A stretch of 64,000 nt of DNA, from IMG/VR virus record IMGVR_UViG_3300049216_000067; one strand, 5' to 3'. Below the pieces are notes generated by a model that saw only the letters and a list, made by a program, of their open reading frames with translations, was not told the DNA's origin and ran no database searches. The translations under genes and the position numbers were made by a program. Shown here in pieces: positions 11,099-63,836 of this stretch (its first letter is position 1; each line of letters begins with the position of its first letter). This stretch comes from a virus.

Positions 11099-13477
11099 CT
11101 ATTCTGCAATATCTGCTGCAAATTCTTTAATAATCATCTTTGAATTCATTTTCCTTTTCTGATGATCAATGAAATTCTTACCCATATCAGCGGCAGAATA
11201 ACCAGGATAGTAGCCCATATCACCGCGATAAGTCATCGTCTCAGTGTTAACATAATAATAGTTATCATAACCAAGGTTAGGTACTGAAATGTAGCCATTG
11301 GCATCCAAAAACTTACTATGCTCAGTAATATTTTTCTTCAGATCAACATTGCCTATTAGCCTCTGTCGAATATGACTATATGTGGCGAAATAATAACCAA
11401 TGTGACGGCAATTGGTGGTCTCTGCAACAAGTCTGGTAAGTGCTGTCTGGTAAGACAGTATGTTCTTGTTGTCGGTTAGCACGCCAATCTTAGAATTGAA
11501 ATCTCTGACACCAATACGAGTCTTGGTGAGTTCATCGTAAGGAACAGAAGAATAATTCTCACCATTGCGAATGTCACCATAGCCATCACCATCGGACAAA
11601 TAAATCACATTGGTGATATCAACGTGATGTTTATTCTTAAACTCATCAATGATGTACTTAGATGCCACCAAGGTCTCGTTAAACGGTGTACCACCTAGTT
11701 CAAAACCACAAGCTGTTATGTTTCCCTGATAGGTAGGTTCATTAAAGCATGCGCTAGATTGTGGATCACGATCACGATGATTACTAATCTGTGCAATGAC
11801 ATTGAGCATTGTAAATGCTTTCTTGTACGCATTACCGCTAAGGCTAGAAGAAATCAAATGTCTCAAATTGAAATGACTATCACCAAAAGTGAATCCACCA
11901 TTGACAGGTGTAAACATCATTTTAGAGTTCACACCAAAATTGTAGCTATGTATATCACCAAAGCCGTATACGTCGAACGGGATACCAATACGACGACAGA
12001 AAGTGCAAAGAATCAACACTTGTTCAAGAATTTCACGGACAAGCATTGACATAGATCCACTAAAATCTAAAAACATGATCATGCCGTGAGACTTACCCTT
12101 AGTAATAGTGGTCACCTTGCGAAACACATCCATCGTCAACTTGTAGCGAGACAATTTCTTATCGTCCAATTCACCAGTCTTAGCAGTCAATTGGCGAGCG
12201 TATTGATTGGCATTCTTACGCATCTCGAATTCTTTCACGAGCATCCCAATGAAACCTTTGTTGCGCTTATGGAAAGCCGCATTGAGGCCACTGGATACTT
12301 CAGAGTAGTTCATCGGTGCTTTAACATTAGTCAGTCCGCGCGGATTACTGTTTTGGAACTGAGCAACAATAGAGGTTTCATACTTACCGACAACCATCTT
12401 ATGAGGGACAATAATCGTCTTGAGATTCGCCTTAGGAATATCAAGGTATAGGATGCCCTCGCCATGTTCATTAACTAGATCTTTTTCCTGTTCACGAAAA
12501 AAATCGTCAGTCTCAGACGTAGGTTCTTCGTTTATCTCATCTTCATTTTTACCGGCATTCTTACCACCAGGTTTTTGATTATCATTCTCTTCAGATTCAT
12601 CATCAGATTCTGATTCACCTTCTCCATCCTCAGAGTCACCGTCAGAATCGTCTGATTCATCGGTGCCATCACCTGAGCCACTATCGTTTTCATCAGAATC
12701 GTCAGAGTCTCCAGACTCATTGTCCTCAGAGTCACCATCCTCAGAATCATCGTCACCTTCATCTTTAAATTTATCTTTGGACTTCTCTTTAGACTTTTCG
12801 GACTTATCTTTTTTTGACTTGTCCTTTTCGCCTTTGTTATCGTTCTTGTTCTTCGTCTTCTCAGGTTCTTTGAATTTGGCATAGTCATAGATATCACGAG
12901 CAAGCTGAGCAGCTTCTTCAAAGGTTTCAATGTTCTCAGCACGGTCAACAAATACCTTTTCTTCTTTGTCGAAAGAAATATGTAGATGGGCACCAACTTT
13001 GAAAAATAGATTGATACGGTCGATCAAGCGCAAGCTTGAGTAGTCACCTTTAAGCCTAGAAACTCCGAAAAAGTCGCGTTCATGGAGTGACTTGTAGGCT
13101 TCCGCAAACGGACGACGCAAGCCTGGATACTTACGTTTGATGATTTTCTCGATTCGAGCATCTTCAACGACGTTCAAAAAGCTTTTAATTTTAGGACGAG
13201 ACTTGTCCTTAGCGTCATTGGTGATCGTGTCATGCCAACCCAAAAGCGGCGTGTTGAGTGCATGACTAATTTCATGACCCATAAGCAAATCGTAAATGTT
13301 GCCGTCCATCTCTTGCCAAACGGGACAATGAAGGACACGATTTTTTAAATCAAACTTAGCCGTCTTGATTGGACGGTGACGGACACTGATATTTTCAGTA
13401 GCCATCAACCTGGCTAGGTTGGACTTGTTTTGACTGAGAGTCGGCTTGTCGCGACTTCCAGAATCAAGCTTTTTCAT
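11099..13477 (-). CDS. CobT-like protein: HExxH domain, acidic linker, vWA domain
   Basis: LARLMATENI, GHEISHAL, NVVEDARIEK, D/E-rich linker, FLDFSGSM, GGTP, LSDGDG; adjacent to cobS. Confidence 0.85.
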   Translation of the reverse strand: MKKLDSGSRDKPTLSQNKSNLARLMATENISVRHRPIKTAKFDLKNRVLHCPVWQEMDGNIYDLLMGHEISHALNTPLLGWHDTITNDAKDKSRPKIKSFLNVVEDARIEKIIKRKYPGLRRPFAEAYKSLHERDFFGVSRLKGDYSSLRLIDRINLFFKVGAHLHISFDKEEKVFVDRAENIETFEEAAQLARDIYDYAKFKEPEKTKNKNDNKGEKDKSKKDKSEKSKEKSKDKFKDEGDDDSEDGDSEDNESGDSDDSDENDSGSGDGTDESDDSDGDSEDGEGESESDDESEENDNQKPGGKNAGKNEDEINEEPTSETDDFFREQEKDLVNEHGEGILYLDIPKANLKTIIVPHKMVVGKYETSIVAQFQNSNPRGLTNVKAPMNYSEVSSGLNAAFHKRNKGFIGMLVKEFEMRKNANQYARQLTAKTGELDDKKLSRYKLTMDVFRKVTTITKGKSHGMIMFLDFSGSMSMLVREILEQVLILCTFCRRIGIPFDVYGFGDIHSYNFGVNSKMMFTPVNGGFTFGDSHFNLRHLISSSLSGNAYKKAFTMLNVIAQISNHRDRDPQSSACFNEPTYQGNITACGFELGGTPFNETLVASKYIIDEFKNKHHVDITNVIYLSDGDGYGDIRNGENYSSVPYDELTKTRIGVRDFNSKIGVLTDNKNILSYQTALTRLVAETTNCRHIGYYFATYSHIRQRLIGNVDLKKNITEHSKFLDANGYISVPNLGYDNYYYVNTETMTYRGDMGYYPGYSAADMGKNFIDHQKRKMNSKMIIKEFAADIAE

Positions 13478-57871: not shown

Positions 57872-58348
57872 TGTTCTGTATCCTCAGTTTGTTTAGATAC
57901 TTCTATCATAGCAGAAAGATCTTTAATATTCATATTTGATGTTCCACGATTGACAATTTGTGATGTTCAAGATGACAAGATCTGCATAACCACTTGACTG
58001 TATGAGGATCGTTATAATCTTCGTGATGTGCTTGACTCTTTGGGTCATCACACATCTCACAGGCTTTCTTAATAATATGGCCACGTTTTAATAAGCCATC
58101 TAAATCACCGTGTTCTTATTACGGTCCTATTATCCCAGCGAACCTTTTAAGACTCAAAATTTTATTTTTAATTTTTTGAAACGGACTTATTAAGAAACGT
58201 GCAGCAGCGAACCTTTAAGAACAATCCTATTAAAATTTTTAAAATTAAAGAGAGCAACTAACGAAGGTACCCCGAACAGAGAGTAGAAGCCACTCCCCGG
58301 ATGGGACCCAGAAACACTGTATTTTTGACATAATAGGATTGGACATAT

Positions 58349-58491
58349 GCTCAGCACATGTGACATATGCTGTCGCATGGCTCAGCACATGTGACATATG
58401 CTGTCGCATGGCTCAGCACATGTGACATATGCTGTCGCATGGCTCAGCACATGTGACATATGCTGTCGCATGGCTCAGCACATGTGACATA
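58349..58491. repeat. Perfect tandem repeat, 31-bp unit, 4.6 copies
   Basis: GCTCAGCACATGTGACATATGCTGTCGCATG at 58349, 58380, 58411, 58442 and a partial copy at 58473. Confidence 0.95.
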
Positions 58492-58557
58492 AGAGTCAAG
58501 TATTAAAACTGTGACACAGTAAGCACTAATAGCACTCCATTACAATGCATTATGGTT

Positions 58558-59121
58558 AATAGGAACTTGTCCGGACGGACATAGGGCTTGACAATACGAT
58601 ATTGTGACGCACAGCACAGAATAGTTCCTATTAGGTGGGCTAATAAGACTGTCTAATGTAACATATTGTGTTTCTCACACTTGACACGCGACTGTCAATC
58701 ATTAATAGGACATAACATAGCTGTGTGCTGATAACGTGATGCACATCACAGATTATACAAATAGGAACTTGTCCGGACGGACATGGGGCTTGACATTATA
58801 AAAGTGTGAACCAGCGCACAGTAACGGCCTACGGCACGTAGGGATTAGTCCTATTAGTGCGCTCGGTGGACACTGCCTCAGTATGAAATTAATTAATAAT
58901 AAGGCATAATAGCATGAATAGAATTCATGTCGTTATTCGTTTGGGCTAGACTAGCTTCTATATCAAAGGGTTAATAGCAATAGGACAGCATAAGACGCTA
59001 TTAGAGCCGATCTAATAGGAAAGGTAATAAAGGGGCAGGGATAGACTGAAAGCCGCTATAAAGCGATCCTATTAGAATCAAATTGAACATAATCTTAATA
59101 GGAACTTGTCCGGACGGACAT
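58558..59121 (+). repeat. Dispersed 25-bp direct repeat, 3 copies
   Basis: AATAGGAACTTGTCCGGACGGACAT at 58558, 58760 and 59097. Confidence 0.95.
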
Positions 59122-59142
59122 AGGATTGTGGGGGGGGGACAC

Positions 59143-59168
59143 AAAAAAGCCCTGACTGGCAGGGCTTT
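59143..59168 (-). terminator. Intrinsic terminator for the leftward island genes
   Basis: AAAGCCCTG-CCAGT-CAGGGCTTTTTT. Confidence 0.8.
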
Positions 59169-59223
59169 GGTTAAGACTCACGGACGTTTCGTCTGTGATA
59201 AGACTCACGGCAGAGAGGGTTTC

Positions 59224-59544
59224 TTAGCGGTCAAACTCCATGAAACCGACACTAGCCACGACATAGGACCGATAGCCGGTCTCGGTCTCGATGATGAGGA
59301 TATCGCCGACACTGGTAGAGCGTGCCCATTCCATACCGTGGTCACGCGAACCAAAGAAGTTAACACCCATGTTTTCCCACCATAGTGATTCAATCGTGTT
59401 AGTCAGTTCGTATGCCTTGCTGAGCGAATCAGTCTCAACGGTAGCCACAAGCTTGTAGTCGCGCATAATCGTGGTGACTGAGGCGCGAAAGTCTTTCGGG
59501 ACTACGAAAGTCTGGTTATTGGCATGCCAGACTTGAATTGACAT
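59224..59544 (-). CDS. Hypothetical protein with RSTSVGD (YodL-like) motif
   Basis: AYELTNTI..ARSTSVGDIL..YVVASVGF; GGAG RBS before MSIQVW. Confidence 0.65.
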   Translation of the reverse strand: MSIQVWHANNQTFVVPKDFRASVTTIMRDYKLVATVETDSLSKAYELTNTIESLWWENMGVNFFGSRDHGMEWARSTSVGDILIIETETGYRSYVVASVGFMEFDR

Positions 59545-59603
59545 AATAGGATTCTCCTTTGGGTTATTGCTGCAAACGGTTCGTTTCGGTTCTAGAGTGA
59601 CTA

Positions 59604-59789
59604 TCATGAATGCGACTCCAGGCTATCAATCGCATAGTCCGCGTTCATGCTCTCAGCCAATTCGATTGCCTCAAAATCATAGAATTCCTGAGAGCCTATC
59701 ACCGCGTTAGTGAGTTCACTCCAAACGACAAATTTGCCGTCGCCTACGGAGCGAACCTGATACGGACCATTTAGTCTTTTGTTGCCCAT
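59604..59789 (-). CDS. Hypothetical protein
   Basis: AAAGGAG RBS; directly downstream of a sigma54 motif. Confidence 0.7.
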   Translation of the reverse strand: MGNKRLNGPYQVRSVGDGKFVVWSELTNAVIGSQEFYDFEAIELAESMNADYAIDSLESHS

Positions 59790-59827
59790 GCTCTGTATCT
59801 CCTTTGATGAATCGACCTAATAGGATC

Positions 59828-59844
59828 ATGCAAGGGGCATGCCA
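59828..59844 (-). promoter_or_regulatory. sigma54 -24/-12 promoter
   Basis: TGGCATGCCCCTTGCAT (GG-N10-GC). Confidence 0.8.
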
Positions 59845-59897
59845 ATAGCAAACAAAACAATCAGGGCGCTAATAGGATCATTCTACTAGCGTGACCC

Positions 59898-59912
59898 TGA
59901 CAAATTTTGTCA
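59898..59912. promoter_or_regulatory. Candidate enhancer (UAS) palindrome
   Basis: TGAC-AAATTTT-GTCA. Confidence 0.6.
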
Positions 59913-59933
59913 GTCTGTGACGGTTTCAGCCCT

Positions 59934-60011
59934 TTAGCGTCGATAGCTGCCAGTGTCGGTGACAGCAACGTAACAGGCGACGATTGCGGCAAACATTAAG
60001 AACATTGACAT
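59934..60011 (-). CDS. 25-aa hydrophobic peptide (not in the ORF track)
   Basis: MSMFLMFAAIVACYVAVTDTGSYRR behind AAAGGAGTACACCAT, identical to the leader of 60027-60239. Confidence 0.55.
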   Translation of the reverse strand: MSMFLMFAAIVACYVAVTDTGSYRR

Positions 60012-60026
60012 ATGGTGTACTCCTTT

Positions 60027-60239
60027 TTAGACAGTTTTGGACAATGAAACAATGTCAGTATCGTTTGACACTACATCGACGCGGCTTAAACCCGTGTAAA
60101 GAAATTTTTCCTTAATAATACGGTTCATTGCGCGGATTGCAGCGTTGCGCGTCGATGCCTCAATGCAAACAATGATGTTCCCGCTTGCATCGTAGCCAAT
60201 GGCATCATAAGTCTCGGTAGAGTCATAATCGCCTGACAT
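60027..60239 (-). CDS. Hypothetical protein
   Basis: Strong RBS AAAGGAGTACACCATATG. Confidence 0.7.
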   Translation of the reverse strand: MSGDYDSTETYDAIGYDASGNIIVCIEASTRNAAIRAMNRIIKEKFLYTGLSRVDVVSNDTDIVSLSKTV

Positions 60240-60279
60240 ATGGTGTACTCCTTTAAGTGAGAGTGATTTAACTTAATAG

Positions 60280-60525
60280 CTATTCGCGCCCATAGTCCCA
60301 GTCACCATGTTGCATCGCGTCTGCGGCATCTGCCTCGCCCTCGCGATAGGCGTCGATAATATCCCGGACGGCAATCTCCGGACTGCAATTGTACGAATTG
60401 ACATACTCGCACGCTTCCATAAACAGGGTTTCCATGTCCAAGTGATCCGGAAGCAACGCATCTTTAATGATGAGCATGATTGCCGCGTTTCGCGCTTGTA
60501 TCGACTGGTATACCGTGTCCGACAT
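60280..60525 (-). CDS. Acidic hypothetical protein
   Basis: AAAGGAG RBS; first gene behind a sigma54 motif. Confidence 0.7.
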   Translation of the reverse strand: MSDTVYQSIQARNAAIMLIIKDALLPDHLDMETLFMEACEYVNSYNCSPEIAVRDIIDAYREGEADAADAMQHGDWDYGRE

Positions 60526-60563
60526 GCTTTGTACTCCTTTGGAATTGATCCGTAGCTAGGATC

Positions 60564-60580
60564 ATGCAAGGGGCATGCCA
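60564..60580 (-). promoter_or_regulatory. sigma54 -24/-12 promoter
   Basis: TGGCATGCCCCTTGCAT, identical to 59828-59844. Confidence 0.8.
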
Positions 60581-60631
60581 ATTCAATCAGGGCACTAATA
60601 GGACGATTCTACCCCGCAATGTGACGCAAAG

Positions 60632-60646
60632 TGACGTAAATTGTCA
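60632..60646. promoter_or_regulatory. Candidate shared enhancer between divergent sigma54 promoters
   Basis: TGAC-GTAAATT-GTCA. Confidence 0.6.
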
Positions 60647-60728
60647 GTCGATTGACAATCAGGGGCACATTTTAACAAGTCGGCTCGTTAAATCTTTCAA
60701 TCAGCGGTCTAGTAGCCCTTGTTTTAGT

Positions 60729-60745
60729 TGGCACGATGTGTGCAT
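60729..60745 (+). promoter_or_regulatory. sigma54 -24/-12 promoter
   Basis: TGGCACGATGTGTGCAT (GG-N10-GC), 40 nt upstream of the DUF932 ATG. Confidence 0.75.
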
Positions 60746-60785
60746 AATCCTAATCGTCAGTCATTTCAAACAAGGAGATTCAAAC

Positions 60786-61841
60786 ATGTCACATCAGATT
60801 GCTAATCAAGCCAATGGTCAAGCTGCTGCGGTATTCAGTGCCTTAGAGGGCGCTGGCTGGACAGGTCTCGGTCAAGAGATTCCGGCAGACATGGCCAATG
60901 ATCCCCGCGCCATTGCCAAATTGTGCGGCGCTAACTTCACTGTTGAAAAACGAGAATGCTACTTTAAGAGTGCTGAAGGCACCTATAAGGCCGCGCGCGG
61001 AAAGGATGTGTTAGTCCGCACCGATACGGATCGCATGCTGAGTGTCGTGTCCGACAATCGCTATCATGTCACTAATCGTCAGCCTGTCGATATCTTCGAA
61101 GCTTTCCGCGACGAACTGGCACAGAATAATCTGACAATCTCGCATGGTGCCGTGCTCCGAGGTGGCGCTGATATCGTCGTTTGCGCCTTGCTTCCCTCAG
61201 AGTTTGATATCGTGGTAGGCAACGGTGACCGAATCAAGCAATACGTCACCGCTAGCACGGGCTACAATGGCCACGGCACGCGCGTCACTAAGTCAGGCTA
61301 TCGCGTCGTGTGCGCTAACACGCATGCCGCGAACATTGCGGATGCTGAGGCAAAGGATAAAATCCGCACCATTCGCGCTAGCACGCAATTGGAGCGCGAT
61401 TCTATCGCTAACCTGATTGTCGATGTGAAAAAGCTTGTGGACGCAGAGCGCGCGACCTTCGATGCCATGGCCAATACTCGCATGTCTAACGAAGATGTAG
61501 CGCGCTACTTCGCGGATGTGCTGGAATTCAACATCGCGGATCTGAACCGTACCAATGCGAACGGCAAGAAACTCGTTAGCACTAAAACTCAAAACATCGT
61601 GAATCAATTGCTTGCGAGCTATGCGAATGCTCCGGGCGCGGACATGGCCATGGGGACCGCATGGGGCGCATTCAACGCGGTGACCTACTACGCGACGCAT
61701 CTTAAGACTGTGCGCGATACCAGCGGTTCAGGTGAGTCTGCGGCTCGCGTCGCGTCTAACCTGAATGGGGACGCGGCTCAAATGAAATTGCGTGCCTTGC
61801 AGCTAGCGGCAAGCTACTCGGATATCGCAGTAGCCGCGTAA
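60786..61841 (+). CDS. DUF932 (TIGR03299-like phage/plasmid) protein
   Basis: WTGLG, LVRTDT, GAVLRGG, RVVCANT, GTAWGAFNAVTYYATH; AAGGAG RBS before MSHQI. Confidence 0.85.
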   Translation: MSHQIANQANGQAAAVFSALEGAGWTGLGQEIPADMANDPRAIAKLCGANFTVEKRECYFKSAEGTYKAARGKDVLVRTDTDRMLSVVSDNRYHVTNRQPVDIFEAFRDELAQNNLTISHGAVLRGGADIVVCALLPSEFDIVVGNGDRIKQYVTASTGYNGHGTRVTKSGYRVVCANTHAANIADAEAKDKIRTIRASTQLERDSIANLIVDVKKLVDAERATFDAMANTRMSNEDVARYFADVLEFNIADLNRTNANGKKLVSTKTQNIVNQLLASYANAPGADMAMGTAWGAFNAVTYYATHLKTVRDTSGSGESAARVASNLNGDAAQMKLRALQLAASYSDIAVAA

Positions 61842-61849
61842 TGACTCAC

Positions 61850-61880
61850 GGCGCGGGGACCGTGAAACCCGCGCCCTTTT
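61850..61880 (+). terminator. Intrinsic terminator
   Basis: GGCGCGGG..CCCGCGCC-CTTTT. Confidence 0.7.
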
Positions 61881-61887
61881 CTTAAAG

Positions 61888-61930
61888 TGTGAAGTCTGAC
61901 ACGCATTTTAAGGAAAGGGTTTAATAGAAT
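61888..61930 (+). promoter_or_regulatory. CRP-family class II promoter candidate
   Basis: TGTGA-AGTCTG-ACACG centred at -41.5 relative to a TAGAAT -10 (61925-61930); no -35 consensus. Confidence 0.55.
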
Positions 61931-61966
61931 TCTCTTAACACGCAACGGACACAAGGAGATATTAAT

Positions 61967-62554
61967 ATGTTAAACATCAAGGGCGCTTTCGTGGTCATCA
62001 AACAGTCTGGCGTCGAGCCGGTCATCCTTGGCGAGCGCCAGTATGTCGGCTATATGGAGCGCGTGACGATTGTAGGCTTTGACAAGGCTAACCATTTCGT
62101 ATTCGGGGCCGGTACGATTGCCGCGTTGCCTTGCACGCAAGCGTGCATGGAATCCGTAGCCCTGAACTATGCCGATACCGAGAAGCACGGCAAAATGGTC
62201 AAGGCAATCTGTGCGCGCATTGCGCTCGGTATGCCGCTAGGCAACGGCAAGGATATCGGGGAGGGTGGCTTGGGCATCAAGTCGCCTGTAGACGCGCCTA
62301 AGTCGCCTAATGGCGGTTCGCGCGTCTCGGTCCCCGATTCAATCAACGCCTAACCCAAGGAGAATATTATGGAAAATAAACTAGTCAAGGAATTGCGAGA
62401 CATCTCATATGAGATAGACGGTATTGCCGCTGACTTAGCGGCAGGGGATATCGACCCAGCAAAAGCCGCTGAAACCCTGGCGAACGTTGCCATGGGCTTG
62501 CGCATTGGATTGAATGCACTCACACGCTCGGTTCCTGACTTAAACAACGCCTAA
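61967..62554 (+). CDS. Two hypothetical proteins (61967-62353, 62369-62554)
   Basis: AAGGAG RBS in front of each. Confidence 0.7.
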
Positions 62555-62571
62555 CGAAAGGAGCATATATT

Positions 62572-62931
62572 ATGTCAACTAACGCTACCCTCGAATTTGT
62601 CGATTCAAACAAGTGTAAGTGTTATGTCTATAAACACTGGGACGGCTCTCCTAGCGGAATCAAAGAGGCAATCTTCAAGGCTCTTCGCTTTTCGTGGCTA
62701 TTGCCCCGCTTTGAGGCGGATGAATTCGCGGCATCATTCATTGCGGCTAACAAGGTCGGACCCGGAGATGTCCGCGTGATAGGCAAACTGAAAGACTATT
62801 CTGGCGACTATCATTATGCCATATCGCATTCTGTGGATATTTGGATTAAGGCATATTCACTCGATTTTAAAGACGGCAAACGCACCTTGATTTATGACGG
62901 CAGTTTCCGCGAATGGAATCCGATAGACTGA
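62572..62931 (+). CDS. Conserved phage hypothetical protein
   Basis: MST.A..YVYKHWDGSP..LPRFEADEFAASFIAANK motif. Confidence 0.7.
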   Translation: MSTNATLEFVDSNKCKCYVYKHWDGSPSGIKEAIFKALRFSWLLPRFEADEFAASFIAANKVGPGDVRVIGKLKDYSGDYHYAISHSVDIWIKAYSLDFKDGKRTLIYDGSFREWNPID

Positions 62932-62965
62932 CAATTAGTGTCACATTGTGACGGCACATTGTGAC
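62929..62965. promoter_or_regulatory. Candidate enhancer
   Basis: TGAC-AATTAGT-GTCA followed by CACATTGTGAC twice. Confidence 0.6.
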
Positions 62966-63026: not shown

Positions 63027-63043
63027 TGGCACGCCGATTGCAT
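63027..63043 (+). promoter_or_regulatory. sigma54 -24/-12 promoter (consensus)
   Basis: TGGCACGCCGATTGCAT matches TGGCACG-N4-TTGCW. Confidence 0.88.
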
Positions 63044-63080: not shown

Positions 63081-63836
63081 ATGAATATGAATGGCGCGAT
63101 TATCTATAAAGGACCGAGTTTGCTAGACGGCTCTCCGATTGTCGTTATCGCTAGTGGCCTAGCCGCTAAGTCATCTAATCGTAAGACTGGGGACATGGTT
63201 CAGACTTACATTCTACGCGCCGACATGGAGCCGACTACGGCAGTTAAATCAGGCGCTGATAGTTCAATCTGCGGCGCATGTCCGCATCGCGGCATCGCGC
63301 ACGGCGACCATAACGAAGGTCGGACATGCTATGTCAATGTCGGTCAAGGCCCTTTGCAGATTTATCGCGGCTTTGTTCGCGGCATTTATCCGACTGTAGA
63401 CGCCGACAAGCTTGCTTATATCGGCGCTGGGCGCAATGTGCGGCTCGGTACGTATGGTGATCCTGCGGCAGTGCCTACGCATGTTTGGGAAACCCTTGTT
63501 TCGAAGTCTGAGGGGCATACCGGCTACACGCATCAATGGCGCAATGCTCCGACGTTACGCACACTGTGCATGGCCAGCGCCGACAGTGAGGCAGATGCCA
63601 TTGAGGCGCATGCTAGTGGCTGGCGTACCTTTCGCGTTGCCTTGCCTTGTGATGCACCTAAGCTTGCGTCTGAAGTAGTCTGTCCTGCCAGTGCTGAGGC
63701 AGGTAAGAAGCTTGCTTGTGCCGAATGTCTCGCGTGCTGCGGCGCTGACGGTAGGAAAGGCTCGATTGTGATTCAGGCACATGGCGGTTTTGCTGTCATG
63801 TCCAACATTAAGAAACGTTCAGAATTGAACATCTAA
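63081..63836 (+). CDS. Cys-rich conserved phage protein (possibly Fe-S binding)
   Basis: IIYKGPSLLDG, NRKTG, ICGACPHR, CYV, RLGTYGDP, GYTHQW, CPAS, CAECLAC. Confidence 0.75.
   Translation: MNMNGAIIYKGPSLLDGSPIVVIASGLAAKSSNRKTGDMVQTYILRADMEPTTAVKSGADSSICGACPHRGIAHGDHNEGRTCYVNVGQGPLQIYRGFVRGIYPTVDADKLAYIGAGRNVRLGTYGDPAAVPTHVWETLVSKSEGHTGYTHQWRNAPTLRTLCMASADSEADAIEAHASGWRTFRVALPCDAPKLASEVVCPASAEAGKKLACAECLACCGADGRKGSIVIQAHGGFAVMSNIKKRSELNI

What the first reader, a model, noticed from the sequence alone, without database searches (positions are those of the whole stretch)
59898..62965. TGAC-N7-GTCA enhancer candidates: possible mimicry of a host pilin-type promoter
Seen: three palindromes with identical spacing (TGACAAATTTTGTCA 59898, TGACGTAAATTGTCA 60632, TGACAATTAGTGTCA 62929), each flanked by extra GTGAC half-sites and lying about 50-85 bp upstream of a -24 box. 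The middle one sits between two divergent promoters. Established: bEBPs bind such upstream dyads, and Pseudomonas PilR activates the sigma54 pilA promoter via TGTC-containing sites. Inference (activator identity unproven): if the phage adsorbs to type IV pili, the activator for its receptor would be active in any cell it enters, so the phage could borrow it for early expression and perhaps titrate it to reduce superinfection.
Basis: partly seen in the sequence, partly recalled or inferred. Interest (0 to 1): 0.8.

Follow-up and report, generated by a model that had tools for sequence, protein, structure and literature searches.

The report
Phage promoters copying host pilin switch
An uncultured T4-like phage from moss drives a small island of accessory genes from four sigma-54 promoters whose upstream sites look just like those bacteria place before their pilus-fibre gene, so the host's pilus regulator probably switches them on.

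Summary
The three TGAC-N7-GTCA dyads sit 51-83 bp upstream of the only four sigma-54 -24/-12 boxes in the window (4 found, 0.33 expected). The middle dyad is shared by two divergent promoters.

The "pilin-type promoter" reading holds up against bacterial genomes.
- A blind scan for dyad plus sigma-54 box gave 120 loci; 44 have a type IV pilin gene directly downstream.
- In 301 Burkholderiales genomes there were 10 matches against 0 for the reversed control, and 9 of the 10 precede a pilin.
- The phage dyads score 23.2-24.8 bits on a matrix built from pilin dyads, whose own median is 22.2.
- They also share the helical phasing of the pilin dyads.

The design is common in viral contigs: at least 120 stretches against 11 for a complement control, in 91 sequence clusters. 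No activator gene was found in the phage DNA I could read.

That PilR itself binds is inferred, not shown. The pilus-receptor and titration ideas are untested, and the host is unknown. This scan has noted the same design on other phage genomes, and I found no paper describing it.

The parts
59891..59921 (.). Enhancer 1. Perfect dyad at 59898-59912, flanked by GTGAC half-sites at 59891-59895 and 59917-59921. The dyad centre lies about -87 from the inferred start of leftward promoter P1. It begins 13 nt past the stop codon of the 25-codon ORF.
   Evidence: matrix score 23.7 bits; gap of 53 bp to the -24 box, inside the 50-55 class of pilin promoters
59859..59877 (.). IHF-like element AATCAG-N4-CTAATAGGA between enhancer 1 and P1. 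It has one mismatch to WATCAR-N4-TTR.
   Evidence: inconclusive
59829..59844 (-). Sigma-54 promoter P1 (TGGCATGCCCCTTGCA). It drives the 61-aa gene (59789..59604) and the 127-aa gene (59607..59224).
   Evidence: a Shine-Dalgarno site and ATG about 29 nt after the inferred start; no sigma-70-like site in front of the gene
59146..59168 (-). Terminator-like hairpin plus T-run that ends the leftward operon.
60621..60667 (.). Shared bidirectional enhancer 2: GTGAC at 60621, a perfect dyad at 60632-60646 and a one-mismatch dyad at 60653-60667, 21 bp apart. Gaps are 51 and 72 bp to leftward P2, and 82 and 61 bp to rightward P3.
   Evidence: both dyads are perfect in relative L001; matrix score 24.8 bits
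60565..60580 (-). Sigma-54 promoter P2 (TGGCATGCCCCTTGCA). It drives the 81-aa gene (60525..60280), the 70-aa gene (60239..60027) and a 25-codon hydrophobic ORF (60011..59934).
   Evidence: In L001 the box keeps GG and GC but has a different spacer (TGGCATGGTGTTTGCA), and the 25-codon ORF is conserved.
60585..60603 (.). IHF-like element AATCAG-N4-CTAATAGGA between enhancer 2 and P2.
60699..60717 (.). IHF-like element AATCAGCGGTCTAGTAGCC between enhancer 2 and P3.
60729..60744 (+). Sigma-54 promoter P3 (TGGCACGATGTGTGCA). It drives the DUF932 gene at 60786-61841.
   Evidence: Pfam PF06067 at 2.8e-22; identical box in L001
62929..62965 (.). Enhancer 3: a perfect dyad at 62929-62943, whose first TGA is the stop codon of the 119-aa gene, plus GTGAC at 62948 and 62961. 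The dyad lies 83 bp before P4.
   Evidence: matrix score 23.2 bits; an 81-87 bp gap class is seen among secondary dyads of viral modules
63027..63042 (+). Sigma-54 promoter P4 (TGGCACGCCGATTGCA). It drives the 251-aa gene at 63081-63836 (phrog_2554) and probably the next ORF from 63880.

Best explanation
The dyads are upstream activator sites for a host NtrC-family response regulator of the kind that activates the major type IV pilin gene (PilR, called Npa in commensal Neisseria).

Each site, or pair of sites, sits on the correct face of the helix 51-83 bp from a sigma-54 -24/-12 promoter, with a probable bending element in between. Host sigma-54 RNA polymerase would bind the promoter as a closed complex. 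The phosphorylated activator, assembled on the dyads, would loop over and open it.

Four such modules drive short accessory-gene cassettes in a 50% GC island of a 40% GC T4-like phage:
- 61-aa and 127-aa genes;
- 81-aa and 70-aa genes plus a 25-codon ORF;
- a DUF932 gene;
- a 251-aa phrog_2554 gene.

Shown here: the sequence features, their non-random placement, their match to bacterial pilin promoters, their conservation in a relative, and the recurrence of the design in many viral contigs.

Inferred: that sigma-54 and a PilR-type protein actually act here, and that expression therefore follows the host's PilS-PilR state.
For: (1) The four sigma-54 boxes are the only ones in 64 kb (expected 0.33). 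Each has a dyad upstream and a Shine-Dalgarno site plus ATG 28-31 nt after the inferred start.

Of these, 44 have a GFTLIEL-type pilin within 700 nt downstream. Seven of the 120 had under 300 nt of downstream sequence.

(3) In 301 Burkholderiales genomes there were 10 matches against 0 for the reversed pattern, and 9 of 10 precede a pilin. In each of 5 further genomes the only genome-wide match is the one already found (four before pilin genes, one before the small-protein gene).

(4) Pilin-associated gaps cluster at 50-55, 60-64 and 72-76 bp. The phage gaps are 51, 53, 61, 72, 82 and 83.

(5) After masking the ascertained dyad, further TGAC-Nx-GTCA sites near pilin promoters occur 13 times at N7 and at most once at any other spacing from N2 to N12.

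(6) The matrix built from 54 pilin dyads scores the phage dyads at 23.7, 24.8 and 23.2 bits. The leave-one-out median for pilin dyads is 22.2.

(7) Seven of 44 pilin loci have a REC-AAA+-HTH activator gene just upstream on the same strand. This is the arrangement described for pilR-pilA in Geobacter (PMC2725144, passage read).

(8) The 92%-identical relative L001 keeps the divergent promoter pair and two perfect dyads 21 bp apart, while the leftward promoter's spacer differs.

(9) No activator signature was found in six frames of the window or in 121 viral loci totalling 1.08 Mb. None exceeded the Pfam cut-off in five viral records, two of them at least 90% complete.
Against: No experiment, no host and no RNA data were available.

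The published wording for the P. aeruginosa PilR site that I could read differs from TGAC-N7-GTCA (PMC8035640, PMC6058289).

In an unbiased sample of 30 sigma-54 pilin promoters from Burkholderiales, only 6 have a perfect dyad and 12 a dyad with at most one mismatch. The motif is therefore common but not universal.

About 23 of the 120 bacterial hits precede an unrelated family of small proteins in Steroidobacteraceae-like genomes. The site is not exclusive to pilin genes, or a paralogous activator shares it.

Only 64 kb of a phage of roughly 200 kb was readable, so a phage-encoded activator elsewhere is not excluded.

The IHF-like elements carry one or two mismatches.
Confidence: 0.7

Rival explanations
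1. The promoters are real sigma-54 promoters, but the activator is not the pilin regulator. It could be another host enhancer-binding protein with the same DNA specificity, or one encoded elsewhere in the phage genome.
For: About 23 of the 120 bacterial hits precede a non-pilin small-protein family, and 5 precede a third family. Only part of the phage genome could be read. NCBIfam has no PilR-specific model, so the upstream activators could be classed only as NtrC-family.
Against: 9 of 10 genome-wide matches in Burkholderiales are at pilin genes. No activator signature was found in the window, in 121 viral loci, or in five viral records. The notes on the other windows of this genome that my three look-ups returned mention none.
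Confidence: 0.15
2. The main role of the sites is as a sink. As the phage genome replicates, its many high-affinity dyads soak up the pilin activator, pilin synthesis stops, and further adsorption or loss of progeny on pili is reduced. Driving the cassettes is secondary.
For: The window holds three consensus-strength dyads plus a weaker one. A replicating genome would multiply them.
Against: Every strong dyad is in register with a sigma-54 promoter that faces a gene. None stands alone. The 31-bp repeat units at 58361-58468 score only 10.0 bits, the 2nd percentile of pilin dyads. Nothing is known about the receptor.
Confidence: 0.1
3. The dyads bind a non-sigma-54 regulator, such as a repressor or a phage protein, or they are chance palindromes. 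The -24/-12 matches would then be silent.
For: No expression data exist. Palindromes of this size are used by many regulator families.
Against: Counts are well above shuffles. The register to the -24 box matches that of pilin promoters. The modules are conserved in L001. Sigma-70-like sites are not enriched, at 9 against 7.0 +/- 2.8, and none precedes these genes.
Confidence: 0.05

Closest known systems
PilS-PilR / RpoN control of the major type IV pilin gene (pilA in Pseudomonas aeruginosa, Geobacter sulfurreducens and Myxococcus xanthus; pilE with Nps-Npa and IHF in commensal Neisseria)
   Same: Both have a -24/-12 sigma-54 promoter with activator sites about 85-120 bp upstream of the start, and a bending site between them. 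In my scans bacterial pilin genes carry the same TGAC-N7-GTCA dyads, often in tandem about 21 bp apart and in the same helical register. The UAS-IHF-RpoN layout is described for Neisseria pilE in PMC6528607 (passages read). pilR lying immediately upstream of pilA in Geobacter is described in PMC2725144 (passage read).
   Different: The genes driven here are phage accessory genes, not pilins. One enhancer serves two divergent promoters. The modules sit in a phage and move with gene cassettes: L001 lacks about 900 bp that carries one module. Published site descriptions that I read are worded differently: TGT-N11-ACA in PMC8035640, and TGT-N11-AGA plus GTCT in PMC6058289.
Takeover of host transcription by T4-type phages (sigma-70 early promoters, then AsiA/MotA middle and gp55 late promoters). 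This comparison is recalled, not taken from a call.
   Same: A T4-like phage uses host RNA polymerase with a particular sigma factor and an activator to time gene classes.
   Different: Here the sigma factor is sigma-54 and the activator is apparently a host signal-transduction protein. The input would be host physiology rather than a phage clock. I tested nothing about AsiA or MotA in this phage.
Other phage links to sigma-54 found in my paper searches: Gifsy-1 prophage genes affecting the activator RtcR (PMC9879122, search listing and abstract only), and Htm, an activator-like ATPase of a Mosigvirus (bioRxiv 10.64898/2026.10.06.757011, passages read)
   Same: Both are cases of phages touching the sigma-54 system.
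   Different: Both concern phage proteins acting on host genes. Neither describes phage promoters built like a host pilin promoter.

Membership tests
Sigma-54 (RpoN)-dependent, enhancer-activated promoter | -24 GG and -12 GC elements exactly 10 bp apart, matching the TGGCAC-N5-TTGCW consensus | tested here: met
   Four matches against 0.33 expected. They are the four best of the 7 hits in the relaxed scan.
Sigma-54 (RpoN)-dependent, enhancer-activated promoter | Activator sites roughly 80-150 bp upstream of the start | tested here: met
   Dyad centres lie at about -85, -87, -116 and -117 from the inferred starts.
Sigma-54 (RpoN)-dependent, enhancer-activated promoter | IHF or another bend between enhancer and promoter (common but not obligatory) | tested here: inconclusive
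   The best matches to WATCAR-N4-TTR have 1 mismatch for P1-P3 and 2 for P4. Among viral modules, 14 of 112 have an exact match against 0.7 in shuffles.
Sigma-54 (RpoN)-dependent, enhancer-activated promoter | Transcription needs sigma-54 and an ATP-hydrolysing activator | not testable with these tools
   No host is known and no RNA run holds the stretch.
PilR-type pilin-gene enhancer | Dyad GTGACA-N5-TGTCAC (TGAC-N7-GTCA) with an A/T-rich centre | tested here: met
   The phage dyads score 23.2-24.8 bits, against a leave-one-out median of 22.2 for pilin dyads.
PilR-type pilin-gene enhancer | Fixed helical register to the -24 box | tested here: met
   Pilin gap classes are 50-55, 60-64 and 72-76, with a further class near 82-85. 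The phage gaps are 51, 53, 61, 72, 82 and 83.
PilR-type pilin-gene enhancer | Dyads often in tandem, about 21 bp (two turns) apart | tested here: met
   L001 has two perfect dyads 21 bp apart. In the window the second has one mismatch. Dyad-to-dyad distances cluster near 21, 32 and 42 bp.
PilR-type pilin-gene enhancer | Drives a type IV pilin gene | tested here: not met
   The downstream genes are DUF932, phrog_2554 and small orphan proteins. I therefore file this as a copy of the pilin switch, not as a pilA promoter.
PilR-type pilin-gene enhancer | Bound and activated by PilR | not testable with these tools
   The inference rests on the association with pilin genes and on the activator genes next to 7 of 44 pilin loci.

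The most novel reading that the evidence does not exclude
Pilin-switch promoters may be a widespread and so far undescribed class of phage promoter. Dozens of unrelated phage lineages would wire accessory and possibly anti-defence genes to the host PilS-PilR/sigma-54 circuit. These genes would then be read only in cells that are making pili, which may be the cells the phage can adsorb to. Replicated genomes would in addition drain the regulator and shut down pilin synthesis. Because sigma-54 holoenzyme would not be subject to phage factors aimed at sigma-70, these genes could also stay on after host sigma-70 transcription is shut off.
Probability: 0.3. Interest if true: 0.85.

Novelty: new variant of a known kind. 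Interest (0 to 1): 0.75.

Why it matters
Lytic phages are thought to start with host sigma-70 promoters and then impose their own factors. A promoter class that needs sigma-54 and a host two-component regulator would make part of the phage programme depend on host physiology: pilus production and surface sensing.

It would also offer a host-range clue for uncultured phages, since the host must have RpoN, PilSR and type IV pili. And it would give a compact, portable, activator-gated promoter module.

Because the site consensus is shared across many bacterial lineages, the idea can be tested directly with reporter fusions in any tractable PilR-bearing laboratory strain.

Tried and rejected
Routes that led nowhere:
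- Own genome: none is held.
- Cultured relatives: blastn of the island and of two viral modules against 50,697 phage records found nothing.
- The 25-base promoter word has no exact match in IMG/VR.
- L002, a 47%-identical DUF932 locus, has no sigma-54 promoter in front of the gene.
- 0 of 68 metagenome loci encoding relatives (46-71% identity) of the 251-aa gene have a strict sigma-54 box within 260 nt upstream. The module is therefore not tied to that gene family.
- No tRNA in the window to hint at a host.
- Expression: no RNA holder is listed.
- Contigs from four moss metagenomes show no listed variant inside the dyads or boxes. An A is inserted behind 59826 in one run, and 63070 G>A occurs in another. 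There are too few variants overall for this to mean anything.

Literature:
- Searches for phage plus sigma-54 or PilR promoters found no paper on phage promoters of this kind.
- Searches for the PilR motif gave only the wordings quoted above. A search for the half-site letters returned noise.
- Motif logos of the HT-SELEX and DAP-seq papers (PMC7532196, PMC8599809, PMC8041468) are in figures or supplements that I could not see. They may already show this dyad for PilR.
- Two older papers were not held.

Ideas considered and set aside:
- NorR (GT-N7-AC) and GlrR (TGTC-N10-GACA) came to mind from memory as possible binders. I dropped them because the half-site orientation differs and the genome scan pointed to pilin genes.
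- Pfam gave nothing for the small-protein family that shares the site in Steroidobacteraceae-like genomes.
Full report
**What the window is.** The large ORFs match T4-type head, portal, sheath, helicase and SbcC-like families. The major capsid protein is at most 60% identical to those of cyanomyophages. Most of the window is about 40% GC and is read leftward. From about 59.2 kb the GC content rises to about 50% and genes switch strands. No whole genome is held. The DNA occurs in moss metagenomes. Island genes have strong AAGGAG-type ribosome-binding sites, so the host probably uses Shine-Dalgarno sites.

**The observation.** The window has five exact TGAC-N7-GTCA against 1.55 expected. The two outside the island score 9.2 and 3.6 bits on the matrix described below and look like chance.

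The pattern TGGCAY-N5-KTGCW occurs exactly four times against 0.33 expected, and all four lie in the island. Each faces a gene whose ATG follows 28-31 nt after the inferred start. From dyad end to TGGCA the gaps are 53 bp (P1, leftward), 51 bp (P2, leftward), 82 bp (P3, rightward) and 83 bp (P4, rightward).

The 60632 dyad is shared by P2 and P3. A one-mismatch dyad 21 bp further on, at 60653, adds gaps of 72 bp to P2 and 61 bp to P3. Sigma-70-like sites are not enriched (9 against 7.0 +/- 2.8), and none precedes these genes.

**A close relative.** IMG/VR contig L001 is 92% identical in the flanks. It keeps the divergent pair and has two perfect dyads 21 bp apart. Its leftward box keeps GG and GC but has a different spacer. 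It lacks about 900 bp that in the window holds P1, enhancer 1 and three small genes. Modules therefore come and go together with gene cassettes.

**What the dyads resemble.** I scanned one genome per species of 185,579 bacteria and archaea for TGAC-N7-GTCAS, 49-79 bases, then TGGCAY-N5-TTGCW. The pattern says nothing about genes.
- In 44 of the 120, a type IV pilin signature (G-F-T-L-I-E-L type) is encoded within 700 nt downstream. Seven loci had under 300 nt of downstream sequence.
- Clustering the downstream frames gave 43 pilin loci, 23 loci of an unrelated family of 60-100-aa proteins, and 5 loci of a third family.
- The share of pilin hits rises with the A/T content of the N7 spacer: 12 of 16 at 7/7 A/T and 0 of 5 at 0/7.
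- Pilin-associated gaps fall into three classes one helical turn apart: 50-55, 60-64 and 72-76.

In 301 Burkholderiales genomes the pattern matched 10 times and its reversed control 0 times. Nine of the ten matches precede a pilin. In each of five genomes taken from loci (four before pilin genes, one before the small-protein gene), that locus is the only match genome-wide.

After masking the ascertained dyad, further TGAC-Nx-GTCA sites in the pilin upstream regions occur 13 times at N7 and at most once at any other spacing from N2 to N12.

A symmetrised matrix from 54 distinct pilin-associated dyads gives the consensus GTGACA-N5-TGTCAC with an A/T-rich centre. The three phage dyads score 23.7, 24.8 and 23.2 bits, above the leave-one-out median of 22.2 for pilin dyads.

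For a sample not ascertained by dyad, I searched 121 Burkholderiales genomes for a sigma-54 box followed by pilin N-terminal codons.
- 46 genomes matched, against 0 for the control. One of the 46 is an unpublished genome, which I left out afterwards.
- Of 30 such promoters, 6 have a perfect dyad and 12 a dyad with at most one mismatch within 140 nt upstream.
- None of 30 control windows has either.
The dyad is therefore a frequent feature of pilin promoters, but not a universal one.

**Who binds.** Seven of the 44 pilin loci carry a REC-AAA+-HTH activator gene just upstream on the same strand, in two cases ending 17 and 58 nt before the dyad. NCBIfam places four of them in the NtrC family, below every equivalog cut-off, and has no PilR-specific model. 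For Geobacter, PMC2725144 states that PilR regulates pilA, which has an RpoN promoter and lies immediately downstream of pilR (passage read).

The P. aeruginosa PilR site is quoted as TGT-N11-ACA (PMC8035640) or as TGT-N11-AGA with GTCT elements (PMC6058289). Two tandem dyads 22 bp apart would contain TGTCA-N7-TGACA, which reads as TGT-N11-ACA. I could not check this reconciliation on the P. aeruginosa sequence, so it remains my inference. PilR-family identity of the binder is thus inferred from association, not shown.

**Is the activator host-encoded?** No GAFTGA or Walker-A activator signature exists in the six frames of the window or in 121 viral loci totalling 1.08 Mb. Pfam PF00158 found nothing above its cut-off in five viral records, two of them at least 90% complete. 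Most of this phage's own genome was not readable, so a phage-encoded activator is not excluded.

**How general it is.** The complement pattern, with the same composition, found 11 stretches in the whole collection. One caveat: the control contains CpG and the real pattern does not.
- Only 1 of the 120 viral loci has a pilin downstream.
- The 121 modules fall into 91 sequence clusters, in loci of 28-67% GC.
- 79 of the 121 modules lie outside stop-free frames of 150 aa or more, against 2 of 11 control hits.
- Of 64 intergenic cluster representatives, 59 have gaps in the pilin classes, where 61% would be expected from a uniform spread. For unique modules with A/T-rich spacers the figure is 65 of 72, p = 3e-8.
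- Masked secondary dyads occur 51 times at N7 and at most 5 times at any other spacing.
- Distances between dyads cluster near 21, 32-34 and 42 bp.
- An exact IHF consensus lies between dyad and promoter in 14 of 112 modules, against 0.7 in shuffles.
- Downstream genes are diverse. One recurrent first gene matches an anti-restriction PHROG.

This scan's notebook already lists the same design on several other phage genomes. I did not examine those.

**Mechanism, with what is shown and what is inferred.** Shown: four complete enhancer-plus-sigma-54 modules, their match to bacterial pilin control regions in sequence, spacing and phase, their conservation in a relative, and their mobility with cassettes. 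Inferred: host sigma-54 polymerase sits on each box, and a phosphorylated PilR-type regulator on the dyads opens it with the help of a bend. The cassettes would then be expressed according to the host's PilS-PilR state. I have no evidence for a pilus receptor, for early timing, or for titration.

**Verdict.** This is a new variant of a known kind: a PilR/sigma-54 pilin switch borrowed by phages.

Noticed in passing
window 58349-58498: A perfect 31-bp tandem repeat whose units contain TGACATATGCTGTCG, one mismatch from the dyad. On my pilin-dyad matrix a unit scores only 10.0 bits, the 2nd percentile of pilin dyads. I therefore doubt it is a good site for the same activator.
   Followed up: partly
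window 58125-60603: The octamer TAATAGGA and a roughly 25-bp repeat (AATAGGAACTTGTCCGGACGGACATAGG, seen near 58560, 58762 and 59096) crowd the gene-free stretch before the island. Copies sit next to both leftward sigma-54 promoters.
   Followed up: no
window 59934-60011 (minus strand): A 25-codon hydrophobic ORF with its own GGAG ribosome-binding site. It is conserved in relative L001 and is too short for the ORF lists.
   Followed up: partly
L004, L005, L006, L010, L012, L013, L027, L047 and 15 further bacterial loci: In Steroidobacteraceae-like Gammaproteobacteria, the same dyad plus sigma-54 box (gaps 51-69, about half at 53-57) precedes a conserved family of 60-100-aa proteins of unknown function with no Pfam match. 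This may be a second target of the pilin regulator or of a paralogue.
   Followed up: partly
L017, L045, L077, L087, L091: A third small-protein family of about 95 aa follows the same module at a fixed 54-bp gap. In L077 and L091 a pilin gene follows it.
   Followed up: no
L155, L163, L202, L208, L245 (IMG/VR): A group of viral contigs drives a 300-aa protein matching an anti-restriction PHROG (phrog_7245, 1.7e-75) from a pilin-type module with a 54-bp gap.
   Followed up: partly
L185 (IMG/VR), 11284-11644: Seven sigma-54 boxes are packed into about 360 bp at a contig end, beside a dyad identical to the window's 60632 dyad. The contig has no nucleotide similarity to the window.
   Followed up: no
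window 61846-61880: A G+C-rich hairpin followed by a T-run lies after the DUF932 gene. It looks like a terminator, but the scan missed it, probably because of its long loop. The next three genes (61967-62931) have no sigma-54 box of their own.
   Followed up: no
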